From the sequence record NC_104876.1: a stretch of 40,815 nucleotides of DNA; one strand, given 5' to 3'. The stretch's first letter is position 1, and each line of letters starts with the position of its first letter. The position numbers were made by a program, and so were the translations under genes. Below are positions 12,938-39,688 of this stretch, piece by piece. The notes below the pieces were generated by a model. The model was not told the origin of the DNA. It saw only the letters and a program-made list of their open reading frames with translations, and made no database searches. This DNA comes from a phage.

Positions 12938-12940
12938 TAT

Positions 12941-13204: not shown

Positions 13205-13206
13205 AA

Positions 13207-14543: not shown

Positions 14544-14793
14544 GCTTATGTCCTCCGTATGACAGCCACGCCTGGCGAATCTGGCGCAGCGCGACTAATG
14601 TGATTAATGTCTCAGGCAGCGTAGGCGACATGCTGCCCTGTAACAGGTGGATACATCCGGCGGCGCAGACAATAGCAGTCAGGATATAGAGCACCCGACC
14701 GAACAGCCCGTCGTCAACGCTGGGGTGATATACATTAAACAGCGATGTGCCCCCGATTGCCAGCATACCACCGAACCAGAATAACTCATTCAT
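14521..14793 (-). CDS. Small membrane protein (holin or antiholin partner)
   Basis: Start set to ATG at 14793 (MNELFWFGGMLAIGG...), which overlaps the upstream holin stop (ATGAATGA). Two or three hydrophobic helices. The longer track ORF 14521..14973 is out of frame with the holin and lacks an RBS. Confidence 0.4.
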   Translation of the reverse strand: MNELFWFGGMLAIGGTSLFNVYHPSVDDGLFGRVLYILTAIVCAAGCIHLLQGSMSPTLPETLITLVALRQIRQAWLSYGGHKRVSKYFR

Positions 14794-15094
14794 CTGTGCC
14801 TCCTCGACGTGCAATGTATTCTCCGGCGACGATGCCGGAAAGGCGTGAATAGATAGGCATCCAGAGAATAGCGATGATGAAGCCCAGGCCAGCGATTTCA
14901 CGGTCGCCCGTGATACCAAACCATTGAGCTGCGAGAGGTGCACCAAATACGGCGCAAGCGAAGCCGGTTGCAATAAAGCAGAAGCCGTCGAGGGGGCCAG
15001 AAATAGCGGACTTATGTTGTCGTAGTCCGATGACCCCTCCGGCTAGCGCGGCAGCGAGAAGCCAGCCTGTCACTGTTTCAGTAAATTTATCCAA
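14786..15094 (-). CDS. Holin (putative)
   Basis: 102 aa with three hydrophobic segments (WLLAAALAGGVIGL, FCFIATGFACAVFGAPLAAQWF, GLGFIIAILWMPIY) and a charged C-terminus; immediately upstream of the endolysin region. Confidence 0.45.
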   Translation of the reverse strand: MDKFTETVTGWLLAAALAGGVIGLRQHKSAISGPLDGFCFIATGFACAVFGAPLAAQWFGITGDREIAGLGFIIAILWMPIYSRLSGIVAGEYIARRGGTDE

Positions 15095-15284
15095 GATGAA
15101 TCCTCCAGGTGCGTATTAAGTATGCAGTAACTGGAGGATAGCACGGTTAGGAATTATCTTAATAACGGTTTATTTATGGCGCCAGATGTATTGTCGTCTC
15201 TGTGGTTTCGTCGGAATATCATCGTATCCAAGCGATTTCCAGTAATTAAATAGCCGGTTAGCGATTGCTGCGCGTTCCTGTGTT

Positions 15285-15731
15285 TTAAACTCGCCGAGAT
15301 TCAAGTCCGTCCCACTCACGCTTGCCGCATTCGCAGCAAAACCGGCTACCGGGCACGTTGTCCTTGTGGCCTTCGGCAATAAACAATCCTGGAGCGATAA
15401 TCCAATTGTGGTCACATTCCTGCGTATCTTCTTTTCGGCAACCAGATTGCTCCGAACCGTACGCACCTTTGCGGATAAGTTTGTATGCCTCCACGTCACC
15501 AGTAGCCTCGACCAATGCCAGATGCAACTCCTTAACTTGCCCTGTCAGGTGCGATATGTGCTCAGATTTCTTAATGTTGTCTTCCCGCAACTCCTTAATC
15601 TGCGCCGACGCATCACGTAACTGATTCTTAAGTGACTGCACCTCATGCGCCAGGTCTTCGCTCCGGCTGTTATTTACCTGCTGCCGTAGCTGGTCGATCA
15701 GGTACTCGAATATTTCGTTTTTAGTGTTCAT
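15285..15731 (-). CDS. Hypothetical coiled-coil protein with C-terminal Cys-rich (zinc-ribbon-like) region
   Basis: 148-aa ORF; coiled-coil N-terminus; C-x-n-C-C-x-C cluster near C-terminus; first large gene after promoter at 15879-15909. Confidence 0.35.
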   Translation of the reverse strand: MNTKNEIFEYLIDQLRQQVNNSRSEDLAHEVQSLKNQLRDASAQIKELREDNIKKSEHISHLTGQVKELHLALVEATGDVEAYKLIRKGAYGSEQSGCRKEDTQECDHNWIIAPGLFIAEGHKDNVPGSRFCCECGKREWDGLESRRV

Positions 15732-15878
15732 ATTCTTCGCTCACCCCGTTATAGACGCCGTTGTAGTCCCCGTCGCAGATGAACGGGTAGAGCATATCTT
15801 CGTACTCGTCCTGCAACTCACCTAAAGTTACTTCGCTATAATCTTTCATATTCTGTCTCCCCTCTCGTTTGTGTAAAT

Positions 15879-15909
15879 GAATAGTAGCCTATTCTATCTT
15901 AGTGTGCAA
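15879..15909 (-). promoter_or_regulatory. Promoter (TTGCAC-N17-TACTAT) with embedded operator palindrome GAATAGTAGCCTATT
   Basis: -35 at 15904-15909 and -10 at 15881-15886 on minus strand; operator 15879-15893. Near-identical to promoters at 17201-17231 and 39657-39688. Confidence 0.55.
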
Positions 15910-15916
15910 GTAAATT

Positions 15917-16090
15917 TTATTGGTGTGTTATAGAGTCGATGAACGCCAGTAACTCCCTTTCCGCTTCTGCTTCTCTTTCTTCAAGCGACCAGGTAGCGGA
16001 TTCCTCTGTTGCCGTTGCTAAATCGGTTTTTACGTCAATCATCGTGTCGATTAACGTTATTAGTCGTTCAGCCTGTTCTTTAGTAATCAT
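15917..16090 (-). CDS. Hypothetical small acidic protein
   Basis: 57-aa ORF (MITKEQAERLITLIDTMIDVK...) with AGGAG RBS 8 nt upstream; not in track (under 60 aa). Confidence 0.3.
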   Translation of the reverse strand: MITKEQAERLITLIDTMIDVKTDLATATEESATWSLEEREAEAERELLAFIDSITHQ

Positions 16091-16224
16091 TGTTGCATCT
16101 CCTGCAATAGTCGCTTCGATTGTTGCGTTTGATGAAAGTGTCGCCTTTTGACGACACTAAGTTAAAGTTGTACGCTGCTGTGTAGCAGCGTAAGTCACTC
16201 AATAAAATCCCAAACTATTGAACA

Positions 16225-16419
16225 TCACACTTCTGGCGGCTCTGGTAACGGCATCCAGTGCGACGGTTCACATACCCCCTCAACACCATTCATGTAAAAG
16301 AATTGAAATAACCCTTTACCTCTGTGGAACCCCACCATCTGCTCTTTTGTATCTGAGCAATAAACCAAAACATCTTCTTCGTTTGGCATCCGCTCACTAC
16401 ACTTAATCCACTCACCCAT
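16225..16419 (-). CDS. DUF551-like small phage protein
   Basis: C-terminal HWMPLPEPP motif recalled as characteristic of DUF551; 64 aa. Confidence 0.45.
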   Translation of the reverse strand: MGEWIKCSERMPNEEDVLVYCSDTKEQMVGFHRGKGLFQFFYMNGVEGVCEPSHWMPLPEPPEV

Positions 16420-16570
16420 ACCTCACACCTCTTTCAATCAAGGATTGCACACCAGCTTTCCACGCCCGCCACGCGAGACGCGTCTTAACGTTCAGGTACT
16501 CTTTCTTTGAACCCTTGTTAACCGGCAGACCCTCGACTACGGCCCACCGTTCAAATGCTTCTCTCATAAC

Positions 16571-16771
16571 TTAGTCCTCCAGAACTTCGCATTCACTTGC
16601 ATACACAACTACATACCCCGCGTCACATTCAATAATGAACATATCGGGACCGGCGTGTGTAACCTCAAACTCATCTCCTACTGCAACGCCCCAGTAACTA
16701 AGCGGCAAATCATCGCCATCGCGCAGGTCCACATAATCAACGTCTGTTATACGAATCCTCATTAACGGCAA
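16571..16771 (-). CDS. Hypothetical early protein
   Basis: 66-aa ORF, overlapping start/stop with neighbours. Confidence 0.35.
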   Translation of the reverse strand: MPLMRIRITDVDYVDLRDGDDLPLSYWGVAVGDEFEVTHAGPDMFIIECDAGYVVVYASECEVLED

Positions 16772-16980
16772 CCTCCCTCAGAGTCGTCGGCACCGGCATC
16801 ATGATTCGATGCCGGTTCGAGTAAAGTGACCACACCACTTTCCTTCGTCAGAAGGATGTAAACCGTCCGCAAATGTGCGTACTGTTTTAGCCAGGGACCG
16901 ATTTCGGATTTACTGTTGAATTCTTTACTGGCTATGGTTTGTTTTGTCTCTTTCGATTTAATCTCTAGCTTAATCATCAC
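16762..16980 (-). CDS. Hypothetical early protein
   Basis: 72-aa ORF in coupled chain. Confidence 0.35.
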   Translation of the reverse strand: MMIKLEIKSKETKQTIASKEFNSKSEIGPWLKQYAHLRTVYILLTKESGVVTLLEPASNHDAGADDSEGGCR

Positions 16981-17168
16981 TTCGCCCCTTTGAATTTAAA
17001 ATTGTTGCCGATGAGTTTTAAGTTATCCTCTTCTACGTATATTCGTGAATTTACCCCTCTCACCTTTTGCACGGTCACTACGTACTCACCAGGGAATACA
17101 TTAGATTTCAATTCAATTATGCCGTGTTTACCGTCGGCGCATTTAACCAACTGACCATTCTTAAACAT
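16977..17168 (-). CDS. Hypothetical early protein
   Basis: Start set to ATG 17168 (MFKNGQLVK...) with GAGGAG RBS; first gene downstream of promoter 17201-17231. Confidence 0.4.
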   Translation of the reverse strand: MFKNGQLVKCADGKHGIIELKSNVFPGEYVVTVQKVRGVNSRIYVEEDNLKLIGNNFKFKGAK

Positions 17169-17200
17169 AACCCTCACTCCTCTGTCTCGTTTCGATAAGT

Positions 17201-17231
17201 GAATAGTAACCTATTATGTTGGGGTGTGCAA
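17201..17231 (-). promoter_or_regulatory. Promoter (TTGCAC-N17-TACTAT) with embedded operator GAATAGTAACCTATTAT
   Basis: -35 at 17226-17231, -10 at 17203-17208 (minus strand); inverted repeat AATAG-N4-CTATT at 17202-17215. Confidence 0.55.
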
Positions 17232-17602
17232 GAGAATAGTTACGTTGCCGTTGTGATTCTTCAGGTAGGGTTGTGCCTTTATTCTTATTACTTGGTAACT
17301 AAAGGGCGGGCCTTAAGCCTGCCCAATAATCGTTACATTTTTACGGTTGCGAATCTACGGCACTTTAAGAAAATCAGATACTTAAGAGATATGCTGCCGA
17401 TGAGAATAGAGCTTGCCCAGGGCAATCGGAGATACTTAGGAAGGAAAGTTACGATAATTCTCATGTTCAGTAAGCCTGCTGCTTAACCCTTTGCTTAACG
17501 CACGGGTTAAGCATTCTTACAAGGTGAACAGGAATCAAAGTAACTAAGATATAGAAGCACCTTAAACGAAGATTTTCATAATGTCAATAGGTGTGATTAT
17601 GT

Positions 17603-17631
17603 TTGATTTCCCATTATTCGCAATGTATACT
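17603..17631 (+). promoter_or_regulatory. Sigma70-type promoter TTGATT-N17-TATACT for the plus-strand arm
   Basis: -35 17603-17608, -10 17626-17631; first ATG with RBS at 17664. Confidence 0.5.
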
Positions 17632-17663
17632 TGGTTTCGTTAACTGATAATGAGGGTTTGAGA

Positions 17664-17834
17664 ATGACACAGAATGAGGTAGCTGAGCGTATCGGAGTTA
17701 CTCGTCGCACACTAAATAACTGGTTAAAGAGTGGGAAGTTCCCTGATTGCTGTATCCGTATTATGGGCCGCCGACAGCCAGGTACGTTTGACCGAGAGAA
17801 AGTGGAAGCGTGGATTAAGGAGAACGTGAAATGA
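17664..17834 (+). CDS. Small HTH DNA-binding protein (AlpA/excisionase-like regulator)
   Basis: MTQNEVAERIGVTRRTLNNWLKSGKFP looks like a helix-turn-helix. Start set to 17664 (GAGGG RBS) rather than track 17631, which overlaps the promoter -10. Confidence 0.5.
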   Translation: MTQNEVAERIGVTRRTLNNWLKSGKFPDCCIRIMGRRQPGTFDREKVEAWIKENVK

Positions 17835-18064
17835 CCGAGTTCCAGTCGCGCGTATTTACGGCGGTCGTTTCGCTAACACGTAAAAAAGGGTCGTGCAGCG
17901 TTATCGACTTGCGCCGTAGTTATTTTAAGTACTATAGTTCAGCCATTATTGAAGGGTCGTTGAAAGTGCTGGTTAAATCCGGTGTCGTGAAAAATGTTGG
18001 TGGGAAATATAGCGCCGTTGCTGAAGTTCGCGGAATGACCGCTACTTTAGAAGACCTGGAATAA
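17831..18064 (+). CDS. Hypothetical protein with C-terminal LEDLE tail
   Basis: 77-aa ORF, 4-nt overlap with upstream gene, ends ...TATLEDLE. Confidence 0.4.
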   Translation: MTEFQSRVFTAVVSLTRKKGSCSVIDLRRSYFKYYSSAIIEGSLKVLVKSGVVKNVGGKYSAVAEVRGMTATLEDLE

Positions 18065-18121
18065 AAGAAAGCCCCAGCGTTAGAGCGCTGAGGCCAAATT
18101 ACTTGCTGAAGGAAATACAAC

Positions 18122-20362
18122 ATGTCCGATGTAATTTTATCCTACTCGTGGTCTCGTCGCAACGCGCGGGCAGAGAAAAAGGATATAAACGTCAGAACCA
18201 CACACACGGCAACGCTGGACGACCTGAAAGATTTAATCCAGCCGCTTGATGCTGTCCGTGACGGGATTAACCCAAAGACCGCGCCCGGCTATATCACTGC
18301 CGCGTGTGATTCTACACACAGCACCGTGAAAGACCCGGAAACCGGTGACTTTAAGCAAGCGCGTAAGGGTTTCTTCTATCGCTGTGATGCGTCTGTAAGC
18401 AAATCGTCGCTGGCGTATCTGGACTTCGACAGTGCAACGCCGGAAGAGTATCAGGAAGCTGTACGCCTGGTTAAGCGTAGCCGCCAGGCCATGTGCCTCT
18501 ACACTACGGCGTCACATACTGACGAGGCCCCGCGCTTTCGCGTCGTCATGCCGCTGGCCCGCCCGGTCGAAGGAGGCGACATCATCCGTGTTCGTCACGG
18601 ATTGCTTGCGCATTTCTTCAAAGGCATGGGTGCGGACCGCAGCGGGTTCACTTTGTCTCAGCCGATGTACCTGCCGCCGGTTGGCGCTACCGTTATCTGG
18701 TCGCGCCGTAACGACCTGATTGACCCGGACGAATTACTGGAGGGCATCCCGGATTACGAGGTGAGCAGCGCATCGGATTACCAGATACCGGAAGAACTGC
18801 GCACCGCGTTTACAGACGCGTTCGAAGCACTGGCGTTCGAGTATGGCGGTGTTATGACCCCGCGCGGACTGAAAATGCCTGCCACGCCGGAACACGCAGA
18901 AAACTACAGCGACCCGACCCCGCGACCGGATGACTTCCTGCTGTGTTTCCCGCGCGAGGGATATGAAGCGCCTAACGTAACCATGATTCACGATACTGAC
19001 ATCACCGCGACCGAAGGCATGTCGCCGAAAGAGGTGTGGAAGTACGCGTGCGATGCGACCGGGCTACCGTTCAGTGAAGTCGCTGAGGCAATCGGCTGGG
19101 GTGCGCGTGAATCCGTTTCATGCAGCCTCGACGACCTGGAAGACGACGAGGACTCAGAGGAGGACGAGTTACCAGAACCGGTAAAGGCTGATTTCGTCGT
19201 AGAAGGGTACATGCCGTCAGATTGTATCTGGGATATTGTTGGGGAATCCGGCACGTACAAATCGTTTTATACGCTTGGGATGATGTACCTTAGCGCTGCC
19301 GGATACCGGTTTGCGGGGGCGGATACCCAACGTTGTCACCATTTCTATATCGACGGTGAAGGTGGTGCAGCCACGCGCACACGTATTGACGCGCTCGCGG
19401 CTAAATACGGCGAGGAAGGTAAAGATTACGTACATGTCATTGATATGGGCGAAGTCGGCAAACTGAAAAGCCTGATTAAGATAATGCGTGAAATTGCGGG
19501 CGACGAGCCGATTGGCATGGTTGCGTTCGACACCCTCAACCAGACGCTGGCCCTGACGATTGATAAGTTCGACGAGAACAGTTCATCAACGGCAATCGGC
19601 ATGGGTAAAGTTATCGCCATCCTGAAAGAAGTGCGCGATGCCACTAAAGCCGCGGTAGGCGTTGTCCATCATACGCCGAAGGGCGGAAAGAAAGCCCGCG
19701 GCAGTGGGGCATTGTATGCTGGCGTCGACGTGGAACTGACAATCGAACGCGCCACTGACCGTCAGATAAACGTATATCATTCTAAATTTAAGCATGGGCC
19801 TCAACAGAAGACGGTTGGCATGGTGCTGGAGTCTGTGCAGTTCCGTGAAGCCCCGCCGCCGAAAGAATACCGTGCTGTTGAGTTCCTCGGCAGCACCGAG
19901 GAATATGGCACAATCGTAAACCTCGACCTGCCTGAGCCTCACAAGGCGCTTGTGCTGATGCCGTGGGGCTTCGAGCCGTTCAAGACCGACGAGGAGAAAG
20001 AGCGTGAAGAAGGGCTGACAAAGGAAGGTAAAGAAAACGTAAAGAATGCTGTAAAACGCGGGAAGGATGAAGGGCGTAAGGAATCAATACTCGCCGCGCT
20101 GGAAGACCTGCAACAGTCCGACGACACCGGACGAGGTTTTACCCAACGGCAGATAGTAGCTAACTCTGGCGACCACGCCATAACCAGCCATCATCTTGAG
20201 AAGATGCTGAAAGACGGCGAGTTGATGCTCGGGTGTGATGTTAACGGTGAAGTTATACCGGGAACATACCGGATACCGGAAAAGATGGGTGACAGATTAA
20301 GGCCGAAGACAATATACGAACCGAATGAGATGCTGGTGGTGACAGAGGAGGATTTGGAATAG
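18122..20362 (+). CDS. Primase-helicase (prim-pol-like N-terminal region plus RecA-like ATPase)
   Basis: Walker A VGESGTYKS and Walker B GMVAFD in the central region; acidic linker DDLEDDEDSEEDE; 746 aa; ends ...TEEDLE. Confidence 0.6.
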   Translation: MSDVILSYSWSRRNARAEKKDINVRTTHTATLDDLKDLIQPLDAVRDGINPKTAPGYITAACDSTHSTVKDPETGDFKQARKGFFYRCDASVSKSSLAYLDFDSATPEEYQEAVRLVKRSRQAMCLYTTASHTDEAPRFRVVMPLARPVEGGDIIRVRHGLLAHFFKGMGADRSGFTLSQPMYLPPVGATVIWSRRNDLIDPDELLEGIPDYEVSSASDYQIPEELRTAFTDAFEALAFEYGGVMTPRGLKMPATPEHAENYSDPTPRPDDFLLCFPREGYEAPNVTMIHDTDITATEGMSPKEVWKYACDATGLPFSEVAEAIGWGARESVSCSLDDLEDDEDSEEDELPEPVKADFVVEGYMPSDCIWDIVGESGTYKSFYTLGMMYLSAAGYRFAGADTQRCHHFYIDGEGGAATRTRIDALAAKYGEEGKDYVHVIDMGEVGKLKSLIKIMREIAGDEPIGMVAFDTLNQTLALTIDKFDENSSSTAIGMGKVIAILKEVRDATKAAVGVVHHTPKGGKKARGSGALYAGVDVELTIERATDRQINVYHSKFKHGPQQKTVGMVLESVQFREAPPPKEYRAVEFLGSTEEYGTIVNLDLPEPHKALVLMPWGFEPFKTDEEKEREEGLTKEGKENVKNAVKRGKDEGRKESILAALEDLQQSDDTGRGFTQRQIVANSGDHAITSHHLEKMLKDGELMLGCDVNGEVIPGTYRIPEKMGDRLRPKTIYEPNEMLVVTEEDLE

Positions 20363-20381
20363 GTAAAAAAAGAAAGGGGCA

Positions 20382-20597
20382 TTAAGCCCCCTCACCTAAC
20401 GCCAGCCACTTGGCGTCTACTTGCAGCACTTCCGCCAGTTTAAACAGCGTCGCCGGGCGGACGTCCTGAGTTACACCGAGTGCAAGCTGGTTAATTGCGC
20501 CTTGGGAAACACCGGCCAGGACAGCCAGACGGCGCTGGGAGATGCCGAGTTCTTTGCGGCGTTGCTCTACACGGATACCTAGTTCAGATGGTTGCAT
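20382..20597 (-). CDS. XRE-family HTH transcriptional regulator (Cro/CI-like)
   Basis: LGISQRRLAVLAGVSQGAINQLALG is a classic XRE-type HTH; 71 aa; divergent from the operator-bearing promoter region 20627-20690. Confidence 0.65.
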   Translation of the reverse strand: MQPSELGIRVEQRRKELGISQRRLAVLAGVSQGAINQLALGVTQDVRPATLFKLAEVLQVDAKWLALGEGA

Positions 20598-20661
20598 GTC
20601 AATTACTCCTTAGTCAGTTGATATGTGAATAGTACCATATTAATTATTTTAGAAAAGCCCA

Positions 20662-20690
20662 TTGACATGTGAATAGTTCGCTATTATAGT
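20662..20690 (+). promoter_or_regulatory. Promoter TTGACA-N17-TATAGT with embedded operator GAATAGTTCGCTATTAT; second operator-like site at 20627-20643
   Basis: -35 20662-20667, -10 20685-20690; inverted repeat AATAG-N4-CTATT 20672-20685; upstream site GAATAGTACCATATTAA. Confidence 0.6.
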
Positions 20691-20720
20691 TAGCCCATAC
20701 CAAACGAGAGGAGAGATAAA

Positions 20721-20882
20721 ATGAAGTTCAGCGTAGACGTAATACCGACAGAAGAGATGCTAAAAGCGGGTATAGACCAACTGCTCGACGTAATACCAGG
20801 CCTCGAGGATGAAGTCGATGAAGAGCAACTGTCAGACGCCGTTTGTTTTATCTGGCAAGCAATGATTCAAGAGTCAAAATAA
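20721..20882 (+). CDS. Small acidic hypothetical protein
   Basis: 53-aa ORF with GAGGAGAG RBS directly after the promoter; not in track (under 60 aa). Confidence 0.35.
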   Translation: MKFSVDVIPTEEMLKAGIDQLLDVIPGLEDEVDEEQLSDAVCFIWQAMIQESK

Positions 20883-20897
20883 ACAGGAGAACAAATA

Positions 20898-21386
20898 ATG
20901 TTAGACCAATTCTTAAAATTACTGGAACGTTTCGTAGTTGCGCATGAACTGATCGCAGCGAACAGCGTGAAACAACCTGTGTATGAACTTAAGGCAGATG
21001 CAAACATCGCAGATAGTGTTCGTGATGTTGTTGTGAAAGAAGTAACGAAAGAAATCCCGGTAGAAGGTGAAGACACCGTTGACACTAAACCAGCAGAAGA
21101 AGAGAAGCCGAATCGCAAGCCGCGTAAAGCTAAAGTAGAGGAGCCAACGCCAGAGCCGGAAGAAGAGAAAGAAGAAGTCGATTATCAGTCTCTGCGCGAC
21201 CAGATTCAGGCTATCGACGATGCGATTAACGAAGGTCCGAGCGATGCCGCGTGCGATGACTCCGATGAACTGCTGGAAGAGTTCACCGGTAAGAAGATGA
21301 AGATTGCAGCGATTAAAGACGAAGACCTGGCTGAGTACCTGGAGCGCCTGACAGCAATCAAGAACAAGTATTTCGAAGAAGAATAA
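20898..21386 (+). CDS. Highly acidic hypothetical protein
   Basis: 162 aa, Glu/Asp-rich throughout; AGGAGA RBS; followed by weak hairpin 21394-21409. Confidence 0.45.
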   Translation: MLDQFLKLLERFVVAHELIAANSVKQPVYELKADANIADSVRDVVVKEVTKEIPVEGEDTVDTKPAEEEKPNRKPRKAKVEEPTPEPEEEKEEVDYQSLRDQIQAIDDAINEGPSDAACDDSDELLEEFTGKKMKIAAIKDEDLAEYLERLTAIKNKYFEEE

Positions 21387-21429
21387 CTATCCCGCGGCCT
21401 TCGGGCCGCTTTAACTGAGGGTCGGAATT

Positions 21430-21744
21430 ATGAAATACGAAAATTTAACAGACATAGAAATTAACGCACGGGTTAGCCGTGCGCTATGGGGCGATGTTTC
21501 TCGAGGACATCAGATGGAGTTAGCTTCTGGAGCGGTAGACTATTGTAATCGGATAGAGGACGCGTGGCCTATTATTGAAGAAAACAACATCAGCCTGATT
21601 TTAGATAACCCGACAATGCCGTGTGCAACGTCAAACGCTCGGGATTTATTTAACGACGACGATACAGAAGTGGGTGTTGCCTATGACAAGCCACTCCGCG
21701 CGGCCATGATAGTCTTTCTGGAAATGCAGGAGAAGGCGCAATGA
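21430..21744 (+). CDS. Hypothetical protein
   Basis: 104-aa ORF; 4-nt overlap with next gene. Confidence 0.4.
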   Translation: MKYENLTDIEINARVSRALWGDVSRGHQMELASGAVDYCNRIEDAWPIIEENNISLILDNPTMPCATSNARDLFNDDDTEVGVAYDKPLRAAMIVFLEMQEKAQ

Positions 21745-22019
21745 TTTACCAACTCTACCGAGCCGTTGACAGACGGGACAACACAGAGGCTCTATGGCTG
21801 TTGCGTGCGCCGTCTGGTGCGCACCAGATGGAAGAGATGGCGTACTTAGGCAAAGTACCGCGGCCTAAAGATATAGGCCGTCACGTGTCGCAGATTAAGC
21901 GCACGACATTCGCCAAACCTGACTTTTATGTCTTTGAGTCGATGTATGGGTGGGCTATGCACTGCGAGCATAAGACACGACATTTAATTGACCAGTGGGA
22001 GAGCAGAGCATGTTTGTAA
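21741..22019 (+). CDS. Hypothetical protein
   Basis: 92-aa ORF; followed by a coupled 46-aa acidic ORF (22010-22150). Confidence 0.4.
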   Translation: MIYQLYRAVDRRDNTEALWLLRAPSGAHQMEEMAYLGKVPRPKDIGRHVSQIKRTTFAKPDFYVFESMYGWAMHCEHKTRHLIDQWESRACL

Positions 22020-22146
22020 TTATGTATTCAATCGGTGAGGAAGAGTACGAACATAGTAGATACCTTACATCCGCAGAGGCCGAGAATATGATACACGAAC
22101 TTGACGCTGACAGTTTCGGCTACGCATGGATTGAGGAGATTGCGGA

Positions 22147-23388
22147 ATGATTCTTAAAGAACGCGGTGGAAATAACGATGTTCACGCATTACTGTCGCCG
22201 TCTGGGGCTAAAAAGTGGCTAAGCTGTGCCGCATCACTGGCCTGTGAGAAAGATATTCCTAACTCGTCCGGCAAAGCTGCCGTATTAGGTACAGCAATGC
22301 ACACCATAGCAGAGATGCATCTTAACCAGTACATCAAAGGCACTGCGCTGCCGTTAGAGCGCGAAGTCGGGGCTTACGTGCTGGATGAAGGTAAAGGCCA
22401 GATTAAGGCTCTAATCAGCCCGATGAAAGGCGCGGTACTTATTACGGCGGACATGATTGAACAGGTGCGCAAGTACACCGACTATTGTAAGGCGATTATC
22501 GATGTAGCGACTTACGCTAAGCTGGAAATGCGCGTCAATCTTACTGAGGTATTGCATCCGGGTTATGAGGGCGTTGAGACGTTCGGAACCGCTGACATCG
22601 TTGCCGTTCAGGAACTGGCAAACACTGACGAGCACATGCTAATTATCGGCGACCTTAAAACCGGGCGGCGTCGTGTCGAAGCGAAAGAAAACAAGCAGCT
22701 TATGCTTTACGCTCTCGGTGTTTATCGCCGACTCAAGAGACGTTATAACATAACAACCGTTCGTCTGGTCATCTTCCAGCCGTATGCTGGCTGTGCGTCG
22801 GAGTGGGGCATCTCGGTTGAAGGTCTGGAACTGTTCGCTAAGTTTGCACATAAACGCGCGCTGTTAGCCCTTGATGCGTATTTCCGTGGCAAGAAGAACC
22901 TGAAAGCGTCGGATTTCAGGCCGTCGGTCGATGGTTGTCAGTGGTGTCGGTTCTCTGAACAATGTGCCGCGCGTACAAAGACGGTTAATTCTGTACTGGC
23001 GGAAGAACTAGAAGACGACTTTGTGCTGGAACTTACGCCGGAGCAACTCGTAGCTGAGTATGAGAAGTTGCCGTTGTTGCGCCAGCACATCGACAAGGTT
23101 GAAAAAGCGATGGCAGCCGCTTTGCATTCCGGTAAGAAAGTGCCGGGTTACAAGCTGGTTGAAGGTCGCCAGGGTAATCGTGCGTGGAAAGACGCGGAGA
23201 AAGTAACAGAACTCTACGGCGACAAGCTGACTAAAGAAGTGCTCATGACGCCGACCGAAGCTGTTAAAGTAATACCGGAGGAAGAACTGAAAGACTTCAT
23301 CACGCGTAAACCGGGGGCGCCATGTGTCGCAACGGTAGACGACAAACGTCCTGAGTGGAATCAGGTTAGTGAAGAAGATTTAGAATAA
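22147..23388 (+). CDS. PD-(D/E)XK exonuclease, Cas4/RecB-like with probable Fe-S cluster
   Basis: Nuclease motifs GTADIV...IIGDLKTG...QLMLYALG; Cys cluster C...CQWCRFSEQC; 413 aa; ends ...SEEDLE. Confidence 0.55.
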   Translation: MILKERGGNNDVHALLSPSGAKKWLSCAASLACEKDIPNSSGKAAVLGTAMHTIAEMHLNQYIKGTALPLEREVGAYVLDEGKGQIKALISPMKGAVLITADMIEQVRKYTDYCKAIIDVATYAKLEMRVNLTEVLHPGYEGVETFGTADIVAVQELANTDEHMLIIGDLKTGRRRVEAKENKQLMLYALGVYRRLKRRYNITTVRLVIFQPYAGCASEWGISVEGLELFAKFAHKRALLALDAYFRGKKNLKASDFRPSVDGCQWCRFSEQCAARTKTVNSVLAEELEDDFVLELTPEQLVAEYEKLPLLRQHIDKVEKAMAAALHSGKKVPGYKLVEGRQGNRAWKDAEKVTELYGDKLTKEVLMTPTEAVKVIPEEELKDFITRKPGAPCVATVDDKRPEWNQVSEEDLE

Positions 23389-23392
23389 AGTG

Positions 23393-23421
23393 TTGACACC
23401 TGAATAGTTAGCTATTATAGT
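23393..23421 (+). promoter_or_regulatory. Promoter TTGACA-N17-TATAGT with embedded operator GAATAGTTAGCTATTAT
   Basis: -35 23393-23398, -10 23416-23421; inverted repeat 23403-23416. Confidence 0.6.
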
Positions 23422-23487
23422 TCTAATCACTGGCCGGGCAGTTCCCGGAGTAAACTTTGAAATATAAACTGAAAAGCGAGAAATCAA

Positions 23488-24114
23488 ATGGGACTGAAAC
23501 TGAATCTGCGTAAAGTAAACACTGCATGGGTTAACGTATTCGAACGCGAAAAAGACCGTGAAAACGATGATGGCTCAATCACTAAAGGCCAGTACAGCGC
23601 GACTATCATCCTGTCGCCGGACCATGCTCAAATCGACGCGCTCTACGACACTGTTTACGCAGTAGTCGAAGAAGCATTAGGCGCAGCCGCAGCCGAGAAG
23701 TGGATGAAGTCCAACTACGGCGAAGGTAAGCACATGGATAAATGTGCGATTAAAGACATTGCCGAGCGCGACAATCCGTTTGAAGACTTCCCGGAAGGCT
23801 TCTACTTCAAGGCGAAGGCACAGAAACAGCCACTGATTGTAACCTCTAAAAAAGGCGAGACTCAGGTAGAACAGGACTTCAACGTAGACGGCGAACAGAT
23901 TGAAGGTGAACAAGTTTACAGCGGCTGCGTCGCTAACGTAAGCGTCGAAATCTGGTTCAGCCAGAAATATAAAGTTCTCGGGGTTAACCTGCTGGCGATT
24001 AAATACGTAGGCGAAGGTAAAGCGTTCGGTGGTTCTAAAGTCGCCGCAAGCGTCAACGACCTGGAAGACGACGAAGAAGATGAAGCACCGCGCCGCGAGC
24101 GTCGTCGCCGCTAA
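23488..24114 (+). CDS. Putative ssDNA-binding or annealing protein (hypothetical)
   Basis: 208-aa ORF directly upstream of the DNA polymerase gene, with an acidic stretch DLEDDEEDE followed by a basic tail RRERRRR. Function is inferred from position only. Confidence 0.3.
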   Translation: MGLKLNLRKVNTAWVNVFEREKDRENDDGSITKGQYSATIILSPDHAQIDALYDTVYAVVEEALGAAAAEKWMKSNYGEGKHMDKCAIKDIAERDNPFEDFPEGFYFKAKAQKQPLIVTSKKGETQVEQDFNVDGEQIEGEQVYSGCVANVSVEIWFSQKYKVLGVNLLAIKYVGEGKAFGGSKVAASVNDLEDDEEDEAPRRERRRR

Positions 24115-24134
24115 TATCTGAATCAATTTAACTA

Positions 24135-24156
24135 AGGCCCTTCATTGGGTCTTTTT
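24135..24156 (+). terminator. Putative intrinsic terminator or attenuator upstream of the polymerase gene
   Basis: AGGCCC-TTCATT-GGGTCT hairpin (one G-U pair) followed by TTTTT. Confidence 0.4.
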
Positions 24157-24173
24157 ACTAAGGGTCGAAAATA

Positions 24174-26354
24174 ATGAGTTACCTGTTCTTAGACTTTGAA
24201 ACATTCTCCGGAGCCGATTTAAAGAAATTCGGCTCCTATGCTTACGCCGAACACCAGACTACCGAAGTGCTTATCTGTACCTATGCTTTTGACGACGAGC
24301 CTGTACAGGTATGGGATTGCACCAACGGCAGCGACATGCCGGGTGATTTGCACCGCGCGTTACGCCGTCTGGTGAAACCAAACAGTCGCATTAAGATGGT
24401 GTGGCACAACGGCTCAATGTTCGACAGGCTCATAATGAAGCATTGCTGGGACTTTGATATTCCGGTAAGCAACACCATTGATACGATGATTTGGGCGTTT
24501 CGTCACGCGCTGCCGGGTTCTCTTGATGCGCTGTGCGAAGTGCTTGGCGTGTCTGCAGACAACGCGAAAGACAAACGAGGCAAAGCGCTTATTCAGCGTT
24601 TCTCTAAACCGACGCCGAAGAACTACAAAATTCGCCGCTACACTGCTGAAACGCACCCGGATGAGTGGGCGCTGTTCATCAAGTACGCCGTTAGCGACAT
24701 CACCGCGATGCGTGAAGTGTTCCATAAGTTGCCGCGTTGGGGTAACTCCGAGTTCGAAGACCGTGTGCTGGAACTGGACCAGTTAATCAACGACCGCGGG
24801 TTTAAGGTTGACGTTGCACTGGCGGAGGCCGCGATTGAAGCCGTGGAGAAACACAAAGCGCAGTTACAGGAAGAAGCCCAACGTAAATACGGCGGCGCGC
24901 TTACCGGAAAGGACTTCCTTCCTATTCTGCGTGAACTCGCACCGGCGCACCGTATTCACAACGCACAGAAGTCTACGCTTAACGACCTGCTTGCTGACGA
25001 TGATTTACCGGACGACGCCCGCACGATTATAGAAATGCGCCTCGGGGCGGCATCCACTGCGTCAACGAAATATAACCCGCTGCTGTTAGGTCGCTCGTCT
25101 GACGACCGCCGTCGCGGTTGCATCCAGTATGGTGGAGCTAAACGTACGTTACGATTTGCGGGTAAAGGCTTCCAGCCGCAGAACCTGGCGCGTGGGTACT
25201 ATCACGATGATGAACTGGATAAAGGTATTTCAGCATTACTTAAGGGCCGAGCACATCGCCGTTTTGATGTAGCCAAGCTAACGGCATCTACGGTTCGCAG
25301 CTGCATTATCCCGGAAGCCGGGCATAAGTTTGTCGTCGCTGACTACTCGAACGTTGAAGGCCGCGGTTTGGCGTGGCTGGCTGGAGAAGAAACCGCGCTT
25401 GATACGTTCCGTGCCGGGCTGGATATTTACTGCGTAACCGCAGGCAAGATGTTCGGCATGGAGCCGGATTACATTAAGAAAGAACGTAAAGACTTACGCC
25501 AGATTGGTAAGGCATGCGAACTTGGACTTGGCTACGCGGGTGGTGTCGGCGCATTCGTACAGTTCGCCAAGAACCTCGGCCTTGACCTTGTTGATATGGC
25601 AAAAACAATGGACGGGACTTTCCCCGACCACATCTGGGCTGCTACCGCACGTGGATATGAGTGGGCGCGTATTCAGGAAGCCAAGCGACCACCACGTCCA
25701 GGTGAAAATGATGACCGACCATCTTATATTCTTGATAAGAAAGTGTGGCGCACCTGTGACGCTATCAAACGCATGTGGCGCGAGGCTCACCCGAAAACAG
25801 TAGCGTTCTGGCGTGATATTGAAGACGCAGCTATGGCGGCTATCCGCAATCCAGGCAAAGAGTTCACCGCGGGGCCGCGGGGAGTTAAGTTTTCGCGCAA
25901 CGTAGAAACGGACAACAACGGCAACAAAGTCGCCGGTTGGTGGTTGCGGATGACGTTGCCGTCGGGCCGCGTTATGTCTTATCCGGGTGTTGGGCTAAGC
26001 GTGTCGAAAGAGACAGACGAAGACGGGAAGGTGTCTACCAACGTGCACATCAAGTACCAGGGCGAAAACCAGTTAACCCGTCAGTGGGGCTTCCAGTACA
26101 CCTACTCTGGTAAACTGGTGGAAAACTGCACTCAGGCGCTGTGCCGTGATTTGTTGGCTAATGCGCTGCTTAACGTAGAAGCAAACGGCTATCCGATTGT
26201 GCTTCATGTTCACGATGAGATTATCTGCGAGACACCAGATTTACCAGAATACAATGTCGCAGAACTGGAACGATTGATGTGCGAATTACCAGAGTGGGCC
26301 GAGGGGTTCCCTCTTGTAGCAGAAGGCGCGGAGATGAAGCGTTATGCCAAGTAA
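24174..26354 (+). CDS. DNA polymerase, family A, with 3'-5' exonuclease domain
   Basis: Exo motifs LFLDFETFS, HNGSMFDRLI, YAVSDI; polymerase motif A DYSNVEGRGLAWLAGEE, motif B RQIGKACELGLGYAGG, motif C HVHDEI; 726 aa. Confidence 0.8.
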   Translation: MSYLFLDFETFSGADLKKFGSYAYAEHQTTEVLICTYAFDDEPVQVWDCTNGSDMPGDLHRALRRLVKPNSRIKMVWHNGSMFDRLIMKHCWDFDIPVSNTIDTMIWAFRHALPGSLDALCEVLGVSADNAKDKRGKALIQRFSKPTPKNYKIRRYTAETHPDEWALFIKYAVSDITAMREVFHKLPRWGNSEFEDRVLELDQLINDRGFKVDVALAEAAIEAVEKHKAQLQEEAQRKYGGALTGKDFLPILRELAPAHRIHNAQKSTLNDLLADDDLPDDARTIIEMRLGAASTASTKYNPLLLGRSSDDRRRGCIQYGGAKRTLRFAGKGFQPQNLARGYYHDDELDKGISALLKGRAHRRFDVAKLTASTVRSCIIPEAGHKFVVADYSNVEGRGLAWLAGEETALDTFRAGLDIYCVTAGKMFGMEPDYIKKERKDLRQIGKACELGLGYAGGVGAFVQFAKNLGLDLVDMAKTMDGTFPDHIWAATARGYEWARIQEAKRPPRPGENDDRPSYILDKKVWRTCDAIKRMWREAHPKTVAFWRDIEDAAMAAIRNPGKEFTAGPRGVKFSRNVETDNNGNKVAGWWLRMTLPSGRVMSYPGVGLSVSKETDEDGKVSTNVHIKYQGENQLTRQWGFQYTYSGKLVENCTQALCRDLLANALLNVEANGYPIVLHVHDEIICETPDLPEYNVAELERLMCELPEWAEGFPLVAEGAEMKRYAK

Positions 26355-26710
26355 ACTGATTATCGCGGTACTGGCGGGATTTGCTGCCGGTGTCTACTGT
26401 CACGAGGGTCAATACGGCATGATGGTTGCCATATTGGGCATGTTCATCGCAATTTATCTGTGGGTGCTGGAATGAAAATTTACTGGTTTTATGAAGAAGA
26501 CTGTCGAATCTGCCCGCGCTGTGGTATTGAACATACGAAACGTGAGGGGTGCGTATTATGACAATGTTTGTATTTTGGACGATAGTAACCATGCTCGCGC
26601 TGTTACTCGGTGCGGGAATAGCCGCGATGTTCTGTTACGGCCTGTTCTTTAAGTTTGTCGGTGTCGCCGTTCTAGGAGGGGCTTTCCTTACTTGGGTTCT
26701 ACGCTCATGA
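26344..26710 (+). other. Three tiny translationally coupled ORFs: 43-aa membrane peptide (26344-26475), 29-aa Cys-ribbon peptide (26472-26561), 50-aa membrane peptide (26558-26710)
   Basis: Each start overlaps the preceding stop (ATGA). Two are strongly hydrophobic; the middle one has CRICPRCG. None is in the track (under 60 aa). Confidence 0.3.
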
Positions 26711-26991
26711 CTAAAGAGGGCCGCGTACAGAAATACGCAAAAGACCGATTCGAGGCCCTTGGCGGCCTCGTTCGCAAACTCTCCTACGAGGGGCGTTCCG
26801 GCGCCCCAGACCTGCTGGTAATTCTCCCCGGCGGCATAGTCTGGTTCGTCGAGGTTAAGAAAGACGAGAACACGAAGCCAGACCCGCACCAGCTACGGGA
26901 ACATGAGCGGATGCGTAAACGTGGTGCGAATGTTTTTGTCGTTGGTTCGTTTAAACAGGTTGACGACCTAATAGCTAGCTATTATAGTTAG
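26707..26991 (+). CDS. VRR-NUC domain nuclease
   Basis: GAPDLLVILPGGIVWFVEVKK...HQLREH...RGANVFVV matches the VRR-NUC PD-(D/E)XK pattern. Start set to ATG 26707, coupled to the upstream small ORF. Confidence 0.55.
   Translation: MTKEGRVQKYAKDRFEALGGLVRKLSYEGRSGAPDLLVILPGGIVWFVEVKKDENTKPDPHQLREHERMRKRGANVFVVGSFKQVDDLIASYYS
26960..26988 (+). promoter_or_regulatory. Promoter TTGACG-N17-TATAGT with perfect 16-bp palindrome TAATAGCTAGCTATTA, located inside the 3' end of the VRR-NUC gene
   Basis: -35 26960-26965, -10 26983-26988; palindrome 26969-26984. Confidence 0.55.
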
Positions 26992-27021
26992 TCCTACACC
27001 AACAATATAAGGAATTGAGAA

Positions 27022-27213
27022 ATGAAACACGAATATGACCGCAAACCAGCACGTGACATCGTACCGGGTGACATGATTTTCAACGTTAAGACCCGCCACC
27101 CTGTTGCCGTTGATACGGTGTTCGTCGAGTCGAACGGTAAACTGGTTATCGAAGATGTAACAGGAAACGTTACGGCGTTCGGGCGTAAGGAACTGGTTCT
27201 GGTGGCGAAATGA
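27022..27213 (+). CDS. Hypothetical protein
   Basis: 63-aa ORF, ATGA overlap with next gene. Confidence 0.4.
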   Translation: MKHEYDRKPARDIVPGDMIFNVKTRHPVAVDTVFVESNGKLVIEDVTGNVTAFGRKELVLVAK

Positions 27214-39656: not shown

Positions 39657-39688
39657 TTGCACACCCCAACATAATAGGGTACTATTCA
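39657..39688 (+). promoter_or_regulatory. Promoter (TTGCAC-N17-TACTAT) with operator AATAGGGTACTATT driving the accessory cassette
   Basis: -35 39657-39662, -10 39680-39685; operator 39673-39686. Over about 35 nt it is nearly identical to the reverse complement of the 17201-17235 promoter. Confidence 0.55.

What the first reader, a model, noticed from the sequence alone, without database searches (positions are those of the whole stretch)
20627..20690. A single operator palindrome (GAATAG-N4-CTATT) embedded in three near-identical TTGAC(A/G)-N17-TATAGT promoters of the replication arm
Promoters at 20662-20690, 23393-23421 and 26960-26988 share about 30 nt, and each contains the inverted repeat AATAG-N4-CTATT across the spacer and -10 region; the third is a perfect 16-bp palindrome TAATAGCTAGCTATTA inside the VRR-NUC coding sequence. 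A further operator-like site sits at 20627-20643, in the divergent region in front of the XRE-family repressor-like gene (20382-20597), which is the arrangement of an autoregulated switch. This implies one DNA-binding protein gating the whole replication arm in a phage with no integrase.
Basis: seen in the sequence. Interest (0 to 1): 0.55.

Follow-up and report, generated by a model that had tools for sequence, protein, structure and literature searches.

The report
Cro-like operator on phage early promoters
A 14-base mirror-image DNA motif sits on the core of every strong early and replication promoter of this virulent E. coli phage, and is most likely where the phage's own small 434-Cro-like repressor binds to turn those genes down; this is an ordinary kind of phage switch, not previously recognised as such in this phage group.

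Summary
The window is a Kagunavirus (Guernseyvirinae), a virulent siphophage. The dyad AATAG-N4-CTATT occurs six times (0.09 expected), not three. Three copies lie on the replication-arm promoters (TTGAC(A/G)-N17-TATAGT). Three more lie on a second promoter class (TTGCAC-N17-TACTAT) that serves the leftward early/lysis genes and the superinfection-immunity/nuclease/kinase operon. A seventh, degenerate copy (20628-20641) lies on the -10 predicted for the XRE gene's own promoter.

In relatives chosen without reference to the dyad, the half-sites are nearly invariant, while the central 4 bp and the neighbouring spacer vary. Other lineages carry symmetric variants: AATAC-N4-GTATT in Pantoea phage AH01 and TATTA-N6-TAATA in Cornellvirus. 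This points to a phage-encoded dimeric binding protein.

The 71-aa XRE protein is the best candidate. Its closest solved relative is 434 Cro (71 aa, 14-bp operators), and it is the only HTH protein found in all lineages. The 56-aa HTH_17 protein is missing from Cornellvirus and AH01.

Binding is untested. The motif was already listed by PHIRE for a Kagunavirus, mislabelled as a "phage RNAP promoter". Verdict: new member of a known kind; moderate interest.

The parts
20672..20685 (.). Operator dyad O-P1 (AATAGTTCGCTATT). It lies in the spacer and first -10 base of class A promoter P1 (-35 20662-20667, -10 20685-20690), which serves genes from 20721 through the DUF2800/PD-(D/E)XK exonuclease (22147-23388).
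   Evidence: 23 of 25 distinct orthologous sequences keep the exact dyad.
23403..23416 (.). Operator dyad O-P2 (AATAGTTAGCTATT) in class A promoter P2 (-35 23393-23398, -10 23416-23421), upstream of the ssDNA-binding protein and DNA polymerase genes.
   Evidence: 23 of 26 distinct orthologues keep the exact dyad.
26969..26984 (.). Operator dyad O-P3, a perfect 16-bp palindrome TAATAGCTAGCTATTA, in class A promoter P3 (-35 26960-26965, -10 26983-26988). It is embedded in the last codons of the VRR-NUC-like ORF 26692-26991 and lies upstream of the 63-aa ORF, the C5-methylase and the SNF2 helicase.
   Evidence: The orthologous promoter is annotated inside Jersey_39.
15880..15893 (.). Operator dyad on class B promoter (minus strand: -35 TTGCAC 15909-15904, -10 TACTAT 15886-15881). 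The promoter serves a 42-aa ORF (15849-15721) and a 148-aa ORF, and probably the holin/endolysin genes downstream.
   Evidence: 10 of 11 distinct orthologues keep the exact dyad.
17202..17215 (.). Operator dyad on class B promoter (minus strand: -35 TTGCAC 17231-17226, -10 TACTAT 17208-17203). This is the first promoter of the leftward operon of small early genes, which starts at 17171.
   Evidence: 15 of 15 distinct orthologues keep the exact dyad.
39673..39686 (.). Operator dyad on class B promoter (plus strand: -35 TTGCAC 39657-39662, -10 TACTAT 39680-39685). The promoter serves the superinfection-immunity gene (39701-39907) and the exonuclease, PNK-phosphatase and kinase genes. It stands back to back with the leftward tail-operon promoter region.
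20628..20641 (-). Degenerate dyad (minus strand AATATGGTACTATT; 4 of 5 symmetric). It overlaps a class B-type -10 (TACTAT, 20634-20629, minus strand) in front of the XRE gene, and is the presumed low-affinity autoregulatory site. A rival prediction for the XRE promoter is TTCACA-N16-TAAAAT at 20673-20646 (minus strand).
   Evidence: The homologous -10 and leader occur in Jersey. Degenerate, lineage-matched dyads lie in front of the XRE gene in Jersey and AH01.
20382..20597 (-). Gene for the 71-aa single-domain XRE/HTH_3 protein, the candidate repressor. The closest solved relative is 434 Cro.
   Evidence: Pfam HTH_3, E 1.2e-12. PDB best hit 434 Cro, E 1.8e-6, near full length. Present in every Guernseyvirinae lineage examined.
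20373..20393 (.). G+C-rich hairpin with a T-run, scored as terminator-like on the minus strand. It lies between the convergent helicase-primase gene (ends 20362) and the XRE gene; that it also terminates plus-strand transcription is my inference.
17664..17834 (+). It was considered and judged unlikely.
   Evidence: Pfam HTH_17, E 3.6e-8. tblastn finds it only in Kagunavirus and Jerseyvirus, not in three Cornellvirus genomes or AH01.

Best explanation
AATAG-N4-CTATT is the operator of a phage-encoded dimeric helix-turn-helix repressor. The most likely binder is the 71-aa 434-Cro-like XRE protein encoded at 20382-20597.

The operator lies over the spacer and -10 of all six strong promoters that serve the non-structural transcription units: the leftward early/lysis genes, three units of the replication arm, and the sie/nuclease/kinase operon. 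These promoters should fire with host sigma-70 RNA polymerase as soon as the DNA enters the cell.

The XRE protein is made from its own weaker promoter, which diverges from P1. As it accumulates, and as genome copies multiply, it would occupy the perfect dyads and block polymerase, turning down early and middle transcription. This is a Cro-type shut-off or dosage brake. The degenerate dyad on its own -10 would give weaker negative autoregulation.

Shown here: the dyad's positions, enrichment, conservation and lineage-specific symmetric variants; the family relationship of the XRE protein; and which lineages carry it.

Inferred: that any protein binds the dyad, that this protein is XRE, that binding represses, and the timing.
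For: 1. There are 6 exact dyads against 0.09 expected. Single half-sites are not enriched.
2. Every exact dyad overlaps the -10/spacer of a promoter-like element that is followed, about 25-45 nt downstream, by a Shine-Dalgarno sequence and start codon with related leader sequences.
3. The register of the dyad relative to the -10 differs between classes. By my reading, its centre is about -18.5 in class A and -12.5 in class B, and the asymmetric flanks are inverted relative to the direction of transcription. The dyad is therefore not a fixed part of one duplicated promoter cassette.
4. Orthologues were picked by downstream anchors, independently of the dyad. They keep the exact dyad in 23/25, 23/26, 6/8, 15/15, 10/11 and 3/3 distinct sequences. 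The central 4 bp and the -35-proximal spacer vary, and variants with an 18-nt spacer keep the dyad fixed relative to the -10.
5. Other lineages carry symmetric variants on the same kind of promoter: AATAC-N4-GTATT in Pantoea phage AH01 (5 against 0.04) and TATTA-N6-TAATA in Cornellvirus SP-031 (3 against 0.01). In uncultivated relatives L076/L080 I read the core as TTAGC-N2-GCTAA.
6. The XRE protein is a single HTH_3 domain. Its best solved relative is 434 Cro, also 71 aa, which from established knowledge binds 14-bp dyads as a dimer. The glutamine at the start of helix 3 is invariant in the four-lineage alignment.
7. XRE is the only HTH protein found in all lineages. HTH_17 and p77 are confined to Kagunavirus and Jerseyvirus, and no other HTH appeared among the early ORFs tested.
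8. The XRE gene diverges from P1, and a degenerate dyad of the lineage's own type lies in front of it in the window, Jersey and AH01.
Against: - There is no binding, footprint or transcription-start evidence for any Guernseyvirinae phage in the literature I could search.
- The recognition helices of XRE proteins do not track the operator variants in any simple way. The window (QGAINQ) and Jersey (QSLITH) share AATAG. L059 has an S-H helix like Cornellvirus but AATAG-type sites.
- Position 5/10 is not strictly symmetric in some lineages (AATAG...GTATT in L059), which weakens the 'compensatory change' argument for AH01.
- The right half-site always overlaps -10-like sequence (TATT/CTAT), so part of its conservation could be promoter constraint.
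- Class B hexamers match the sigma-70 consensus only moderately (TTGCAC, TACTAT), and the consensus scanner does not report them.
- The helicase-primase unit has no dyad, so 'all early/middle units' is not strictly true.
- Lineage L062 shows a different, non-palindromic repeat.
Confidence: 0.55

Rival explanations
1. The dyad is an operator, but the binder is a different protein. Candidates are the 56-aa HTH_17 protein, another small early protein, or a host factor.
For: Nothing links XRE to the site directly. HTH_17 is the first gene of the neighbouring rightward operon. XRE recognition helices do not correlate cleanly with the operator variants.
Against: HTH_17 and p77 are absent from the Cornellvirus genomes and AH01, which still carry dyad-bearing promoters. 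From general knowledge, HTH_17 (excisionase-like) proteins usually bind as monomers to direct repeats. A conserved enterobacterial host factor would not predict lineage-specific symmetric half-site changes among phages of Escherichia, Salmonella and Pantoea. No other HTH was found among the early ORFs scanned.
Confidence: 0.17
2. There is no dedicated binding protein. The promoters are paralogous copies of strong sigma-70 promoter cassettes, and the inverted repeat is a by-product of -10-like sequence (TATT/ATAG) plus shared ancestry or gene conversion between promoters.
For: The right half always overlaps -10-like sequence. Promoters within a class share about 30 nt plus related leaders. The Jersey record annotates them simply as sigma-70 promoters.
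Against: The left half lies in the spacer, where sigma-70 has no base requirement. It is nevertheless nearly invariant, while the adjacent spacer bases and the spacer length vary. The dyad is kept in two promoter classes with different registers and opposite orientation. Both halves change together between lineages. Single half-sites are not enriched.
Confidence: 0.15
3. The motif tgAATAGTa-ccTATTat-T is a phage-specific promoter, read by a phage-encoded RNA polymerase or sigma factor, as it is labelled in the fBC-Eco01 paper.
For: PHIRE recovers it as the dominant repeated motif, and the paper tabulates seven copies as 'phage RNAP promoters'. The flanks are asymmetric, so the motif has an orientation.
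Against: No RNA polymerase gene is annotated in related complete genomes, and the large ORFs of the window that I scanned against Pfam gave replication and nuclease families only. In motif orientation, two of the window's seven copies (15880, 17202) point away from any gene. Every copy coincides with -35/-10 hexamers spaced by 17 nt and correctly oriented towards a gene with a Shine-Dalgarno sequence.
Confidence: 0.03
4. The bound protein is an activator, or has a dual function, rather than being a pure repressor. At 39673 the dyad would repress the rightward class B promoter and stimulate the back-to-back leftward tail-operon promoter, as lambda or 434 CI does at PRM.
For: A conserved element like an extended -10 (TGATAGAAT; 39650-39642, minus strand) lies 25 nt from the dyad in both the window and AH01. 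That places the dyad centre near -44.5, just upstream of the -35 region.
Against: The gap is 23 nt in Jersey and 34 nt in Cornellvirus, so the geometry is not conserved. The other structural-gene promoter (13936, minus strand) has no upstream dyad. The transcription start sites are unknown.
Confidence: 0.1

Closest known systems
Phage 434 Cro (and the 434 repressor N-terminal domain) with the 14-bp operators of OR/OL
   Same: 434 Cro is the best solved-structure match of the XRE protein, aligned over nearly its whole length (E 1.8e-6), and both proteins are 71 aa. Both are single-domain HTH_3 proteins with the glutamine at the start of the recognition helix conserved. In both cases the site is a 14-bp dyad with conserved outer bases and a variable centre, it overlaps core promoter elements, and a weaker site lies on the regulator's own promoter.
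   Different: This phage group is considered strictly virulent: there is no CI partner and no lysogeny module in the relatives, whose genome papers report no lysogeny genes. The half-site sequence differs (AATAG against ACAA). The operators are single sites spread over at least six promoters across about 25 kb, not two clusters of three sites. Binding is untested.
Lambda/P22 Cro function: turning down the early promoters PL and PR during lytic growth
   Same: The proposed role is the same. A small early repressor feeds back on the strong early promoters once it has accumulated.
   Different: More promoters are involved. The protein fold matches P22 C2 and 434 rather than lambda Cro; P22 C2 is also among the PDB hits (E about 2e-3). 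From general knowledge, P22 operators likewise have a 4-bp non-contacted centre.
PHIRE-predicted 'phage-specific promoters' of Kagunavirus phages (fBC-Eco01, consensus tgAATAGTa-ccTATTat-T; Golestan, seven PHIRE sites)
   Same: The fBC-Eco01 motif is the same. Its site PP5, TGAATAGTACCATATTAATT, is identical to window 20626-20645. The Golestan paper reports seven PHIRE sites, but I did not see their sequences.
   Different: The fBC-Eco01 paper assigns the motif to a phage-encoded RNA polymerase, and no RNA polymerase gene is annotated in related genomes. Neither paper uses the words palindrome, operator or repressor, and the PHIRE sites are tabulated apart from the host-polymerase -35/-10 promoters.
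Sigma-70 promoters annotated in the Salmonella phage Jersey GenBank record (KF148055)
   Same: The orthologues of P2 and P3, and one class B-type promoter, are annotated as 'similar to TTGACA(N15-18)TATAAT'. This includes the promoter inside the VRR-NUC gene.
   Different: No operator or regulator is annotated.
Phi29 p4 early-to-late switch (a virulent phage)
   Same: It is a conceptual analogue: one small phage DNA-binding protein shuts early promoters in a virulent phage.
   Different: The protein family is unrelated. p4 also activates the late promoter, and there is only weak positional support for that here.

Membership tests
XRE / 434-Cro-type HTH repressor (protein 20382-20597) | HTH_3 (PF01381) domain above the curated threshold | tested here: met
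   48.1 bits against a cut-off of 23; E 1.2e-12; residues 11-65 of 71
XRE / 434-Cro-type HTH repressor (protein 20382-20597) | Cro-like architecture: one DNA-binding domain, with no C-terminal peptidase or oligomerisation domain | tested here: met
   The protein is 71 aa and the domain covers almost all of it. It aligns to residues 4-64 of the 71-aa 434 Cro. CI-like relatives with long C-terminal domains occur only in unrelated temperate contigs.
XRE / 434-Cro-type HTH repressor (protein 20382-20597) | Sequence-specific binding as a dimer to a dyad operator | not testable with these tools
   Needs EMSA, footprinting or protein-DNA modelling
Repressor operator (the AATAG-N4-CTATT sites) | Dyad symmetry, in multiple copies, far above chance | tested here: met
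   6 exact against 0.09 expected. The same holds in Jersey, AH01 and SP-031.
Repressor operator (the AATAG-N4-CTATT sites) | Overlap with core promoter elements, so that an occupied site excludes RNA polymerase | tested here: met
   All six exact sites overlap the predicted -10 and spacer. The promoters are predictions, not mapped transcription starts.
Repressor operator (the AATAG-N4-CTATT sites) | Selective constraint on the half-sites beyond what the promoter requires | tested here: met
   In orthologue sets chosen by anchors, the half-sites are nearly invariant while the centre and the adjacent spacer vary and the spacer length changes. Symmetric variants occur in other lineages.
Repressor operator (the AATAG-N4-CTATT sites) | A cognate regulator encoded nearby, with an autoregulatory site | tested here: inconclusive
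   The XRE gene diverges from P1, and a degenerate dyad lies on its predicted -10. Two alternative predictions exist for the XRE promoter, and the protein-site link is inferred.
Repressor operator (the AATAG-N4-CTATT sites) | Covariation between the regulator's recognition helix and the operator sequence | tested here: inconclusive
   The helix-3 variants of eight lineages do not map simply onto the half-site variants.
Phage-RNAP-specific promoter (the literature's label) | A phage-encoded RNA polymerase or sigma factor is present | tested here: not met
   No such gene is annotated in complete relatives, and the large window ORFs scanned against Pfam gave none.
Lambdoid immunity region (CI/Cro bistable switch) | A CI-type repressor with a cleavable C-terminal domain, an integrase, and tripartite OR/OL operators | tested here: not met
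   None is annotated in related complete genomes. The sites are single and dispersed.

The most novel reading that the evidence does not exclude
The Cro-like protein is the phage's single early-to-late switch. Bound at the 39673 dyad, it would shut the rightward early promoter and also contact RNA polymerase at the back-to-back tail-operon promoter. By my reading, the dyad centre is about -44.5 from the start predicted for the TGATAGAAT extended -10, which is a lambda-PRM-like geometry. At the other five dyads it would free polymerase for the late genes.

A related reading, also not excluded, concerns the lineage-specific operator variants (AATAG, AATAC, ATTAS, TTAGC). They could define 'immunity-like' specificity groups among strictly virulent phages and matter when relatives co-infect the same cell.
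Probability: 0.1. Interest if true: 0.6.

Novelty: new member of a known kind. Interest (0 to 1): 0.38.

Why it matters
Guernseyvirinae (Kagunavirus, Jerseyvirus, Cornellvirus) are among the phages most often isolated for therapy and biocontrol of E. coli and Salmonella, and the BASEL phage-collection paper describes them as attractive models for synthetic biology. In the literature I could search, I found no description of how their transcription is controlled.

If the model is right, one 71-aa protein and a 14-bp site control most non-structural transcription units. That would give:
- a simple handle for engineering, either as tunable promoters or by deleting the repressor;
- a correction to published annotation, where the motif is labelled 'phage RNAP promoter';
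- a compact natural series of repressor/operator variants for studying how HTH specificity evolves.

It is not a new principle. Cro-type shut-off of early promoters is textbook biology.

Tried and rejected
- **Rfam scan** of the whole window at gathering thresholds found no family. The dyads are not part of a known RNA, and a 5-bp A/U stem upstream of the start site is not a credible RNA element.
- **Single half-site enrichment** was absent, so the model is a dyad, not an iteron.
- **HTH_17 (17664-17834) as binder** was rejected on its distribution across lineages.
- **A code linking recognition helix to operator** was sought across eight XRE lineages from IMG/VR. No clean correlation emerged.
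- **Reading class B motifs in 'PHIRE orientation'** as promoters for the opposite strand fails. There is no usable -35, and no gene lies downstream at 15880 or 17202.
- **Host-factor sites recalled from memory** (CRP, ArgR, Fur, LexA, IHF) do not fit the dyad. This was recollection, not a tested comparison.
- **Kagunavirus time-course RNA-seq paper** (PMC12645636): it reports an HTH-domain gene among four 'early' genes. I could not map its gene numbers onto the XRE gene, so I do not use it as evidence.
- **Activation of the tail promoter**: the spacing is the same in the window and AH01 but differs in Jersey and Cornellvirus. I keep it only as the low-probability novel case.
- **A literature query with six loosely combined terms** returned only irrelevant papers.

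Full report
**What the window is.** Bases 19500-24500 match about 450 phage records. The best matches are Escherichia phages of genus Kagunavirus (subfamily Guernseyvirinae) at about 90-92% identity, followed by several hundred Salmonella phage records at lower identity, Jerseyvirus among them. The gene order follows annotated relatives:
- structural and terminase genes on the minus strand (about 1326-13728);
- lysis genes and small early genes on the minus strand (about 14055-17171);
- a 490-bp non-coding gap;
- a rightward unit of HTH_17, a 77-aa protein and the helicase-primase (17664-20362);
- the XRE gene on the minus strand (20597-20382);
- the rightward replication arm (20721-29451);
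- tail genes on the minus strand (29614-39548);
- a rightward unit of sie, exonuclease, PNK-phosphatase and kinase, which starts at 39701 and continues at the start of the window.

Pfam confirms the main assignments. No integrase or RNA polymerase gene is annotated in complete relatives.

**Checking the observation.** A window-wide search for AATAG-N(3-5)-CTATT gives six hits against 0.09 expected, all with a 4-bp centre. The single half-site is not enriched.

Each of these promoters is followed at about 25-30 nt by a Shine-Dalgarno sequence and a start codon. Their leaders resemble those of the replication-arm promoters (…ACAAACGAGAGG… or …ACACCAACAAT…).

So the dyad marks six promoters on both arms, not three on one arm.

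**Anatomy.** In class A (P1-P3), by my reading, the dyad runs from spacer position 5 to the first base of the -10, with its centre near -18.5. In class B it runs from spacer position 11 to one base past the -10, with its centre near -12.5.

The flanks are asymmetric (TGAATAG…CTATTAT). In class B this longer motif is inverted relative to the direction of transcription. A dyad kept in two registers and two orientations is hard to explain as part of one duplicated promoter. It is easy to explain as a separate protein site that only has to overlap the polymerase footprint.

The site at 20628-20641, read on the minus strand, is AATATGGTACTATT. That is a class B-type -10 (TACTAT) with a 4-of-5 dyad, followed by the leader and Shine-Dalgarno sequence of the XRE gene. 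The same -10 and leader are recognisable in front of the Jersey XRE gene. The consensus scanner offers another XRE promoter (TTCACA-N16-TAAAAT, 20673-20646). Only start-site mapping can decide between them.

**Is the conservation more than promoter conservation?** I collected orthologous promoters from 50 related genomes and IMG/VR contigs. I used downstream leader anchors only, so the selection did not depend on the dyad. The exact dyad is kept in the following numbers of distinct sequences:

| Promoter set | Distinct sequences with the exact dyad |
|---|---|
| P1 | 23 of 25 |
| P2 | 23 of 26 |
| P3 | 6 of 8 |
| Class B, leftward early operon | 15 of 15 |
| Class B, 15909-type | 10 of 11 |
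| Class B, sie operon | 3 of 3 |

The four central bases and the bases between the -35 and the left half-site vary freely. Several P1 and P2 orthologues have an 18-nt spacer, in which the dyad stays fixed relative to the -10 and not to the -35.

The left half lies where sigma-70 promoters have no base requirement, so its invariance needs another explanation.

In P3 the dyad is also coding sequence (…V D D L I A S Y Y S*). Its centre differs from that of the relative vB_VIPECOTH07 by a synonymous change, GCT to GCG.

**Other lineages.** The same kind of promoter carries a dyad in every Guernseyvirinae lineage I examined, but the half-sites differ:
- Jersey: TAATAG-N4-CTATTA, 4 exact and 7 with up to one mismatch, against 1.19 expected.
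- Pantoea phage AH01: AATAC-N4-GTATT, 5 against 0.04 expected. Its class B-type -10 changes from TACTAT to TAGTAT accordingly.
- Cornellvirus: ATTA(C/G)-N4-(C/G)TAAT, that is TATTA-N6-TAATA. It occurs three times each in SP-031, VSiA and Shemara, against 0.01 expected in SP-031. Two of the SP-031 sites, and the corresponding Shemara sites, have TAATAT as the -10.
- Uncultivated relatives L076/L080: a core I read as TTAGC-N2-GCTAA.
- L059: AATAG-N4-(G/C)TATT.

Both halves change together, at positions 2/13 and partly at 5/10. That is what a symmetric dimer with evolving specificity predicts. A conserved host factor would not predict it.

One caveat applies: position 5/10 is not strictly symmetric everywhere (L059, Cornellvirus). 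It may be only weakly specified, as the fifth position of 434 operators is (general knowledge).

One more distant lineage (L062) has a different, non-palindromic repeat, GCAACCAAC.

**Which protein?** The XRE protein is a single HTH_3 domain (E 1.2e-12). Its best solved relative is 434 Cro, also 71 aa (E 1.8e-6). The 434 repressor head-piece and P22 C2 follow, and a tblastn search also reaches the 434 cro gene. From established knowledge, 434 Cro binds 14-bp dyads with conserved outer bases and a variable centre, which is the layout seen here. The glutamine that opens helix 3 is invariant in the four-lineage XRE alignment.

tblastn against complete genomes finds XRE in Kagunavirus, Jerseyvirus, three Cornellvirus genomes, AH01 and Serratia phage Scapp. 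HTH_17 and the 77-aa protein occur only in Kagunavirus and Jerseyvirus. No other HTH appeared among the early ORFs I scanned.

In AH01 and Jersey, degenerate dyads of the lineage's own type lie in front of the XRE gene: AATACTACGGTATA and ATTACTGTACTATT.

I could not derive a residue-to-base code. The window and Jersey share AATAG but differ in helix 3. That is the main weakness of the XRE assignment.

**Mechanism proposed.** P1-P3 match the sigma-70 consensus closely (10-11 of 12), and the class B promoters match it moderately. All of them should fire with host polymerase on entry.

XRE, made from a weaker promoter that diverges from P1, would accumulate and occupy the perfect dyads. It would block polymerase at the -10/spacer and turn down early, replication and sie/nuclease transcription while genome copies multiply. 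The degenerate dyad on its own -10 would give weaker self-repression.

Several promoters would escape because they lack the dyad:
- 13936 (minus strand), upstream of small genes and the terminase genes;
- the tail-operon promoter region with its extended -10-like element;
- 7085 (minus strand);
- the promoter of the HTH_17/helicase-primase unit.

All of this is inference from position. No start site, binding or kinetic data exist. The one Kagunavirus RNA-seq time course I found could not be mapped onto these genes.

**What was already known.** The fBC-Eco01 paper lists seven copies of tgAATAGTa-ccTATTat-T found by PHIRE and calls them promoters for a phage-encoded RNA polymerase. Its site PP5 is identical to the window's 20626-20645. 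The Golestan paper also reports seven PHIRE sites. The Jersey GenBank record annotates orthologues of P2 and P3, and one class B-type promoter, as sigma-70-like promoters. Many records name the XRE gene 'repressor' or 'Cro'.

I found nothing that connects the dyad, the promoters and the XRE protein, or that notes the lineage-specific variants. The library lacks most subscription-journal papers, including the original Jerseyvirinae description.

**Verdict.** The operator reading is well supported by comparative evidence. The XRE protein is the best but unproven binder. This is a new member of a familiar kind of system: a Cro-type repressor with dispersed single operators in a virulent phage. 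Interest is moderate.

Noticed in passing
window 39546-39650, minus strand (leader of the tail assembly chaperone gene, ATG at 39548): A leader of about 95 nt lies downstream of an extended -10-like element (TGATAGAAT). It is conserved in Jersey, AH01 and Cornellvirus. It has an outer stem (GCGCC/GGCGC, which becomes GCGGC/GCCGC in SP-031), an inner hairpin (GCGGG-UGGUU-CCCGU), then three TAACC repeats before the Shine-Dalgarno sequence. In a four-sequence RNAalifold, 5 of 17 pairs show compensatory changes. No Rfam family matches. It could be a regulatory RNA element for late (tail) gene expression.
   Followed up: partly
window about 6840-7100, minus strand: A promoter-like element (TTGACT-N17-TAAGCT, -35 at 7085-7080) is followed by about 230 nt without an ORF, ending in a strong terminator-like hairpin (6877-6858), just before the gene that starts at 6833. 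It could be a small RNA or a long leader. A perfect 12-bp palindrome CTATTCGAATAG (7086-7097) has the half-sites in the opposite order and overlaps the first base of the -35.
   Followed up: no
window 17215-17660: A 450-bp non-coding gap lies between the divergent early-left operon and the helicase-primase operon. It contains short direct repeats (AGATACTTAAGA/AGATACTTAGGA, 54 bp apart; AAGTGAATAGTAAC/AAGAGAATAGTTAC) and a perfect 10-bp hairpin (17480-17513). It is a candidate replication origin or regulatory region, and a gap of similar size is present in the relative vB_VIPECOTH07.
   Followed up: partly
window 13908-13936, minus strand: A promoter-like element (TTGACT-N17-TATATT) lies upstream of small genes and the terminase genes. 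It keeps the right half (CCTATTATATT) but has no left half-site. It is therefore a natural 'operator-less' comparison promoter and may drive late genes.
   Followed up: partly
window 26959-26991: Promoter P3 and its 16-bp palindrome are dual-coded with the last ten codons of the VRR-NUC-like ORF (…VDDLIASYYS*). The arrangement is conserved in Jersey and vB_VIPECOTH07, and the centre of the dyad differs from vB_VIPECOTH07 at a codon wobble position.
   Followed up: partly
loci L003-L006 compared with the window (XRE and helicase-primase region): In Cornellvirus and AH01 the XRE gene lies directly upstream of the helicase-primase gene and in the same direction. In Kagunavirus and Jerseyvirus the helicase-primase gene is inverted, converges on the XRE gene, and has acquired an HTH_17 gene plus a 77-aa gene upstream. 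The helicase-primase proteins are only about 28% identical between the two arrangements.
   Followed up: partly
loci L062-L067, L071, L086 (IMG/VR contigs): A more distant lineage with a related XRE protein carries the repeated, non-palindromic motif GCAACCAAC in and around its promoter -35 regions, in place of the AATAG-type dyad.
   Followed up: no
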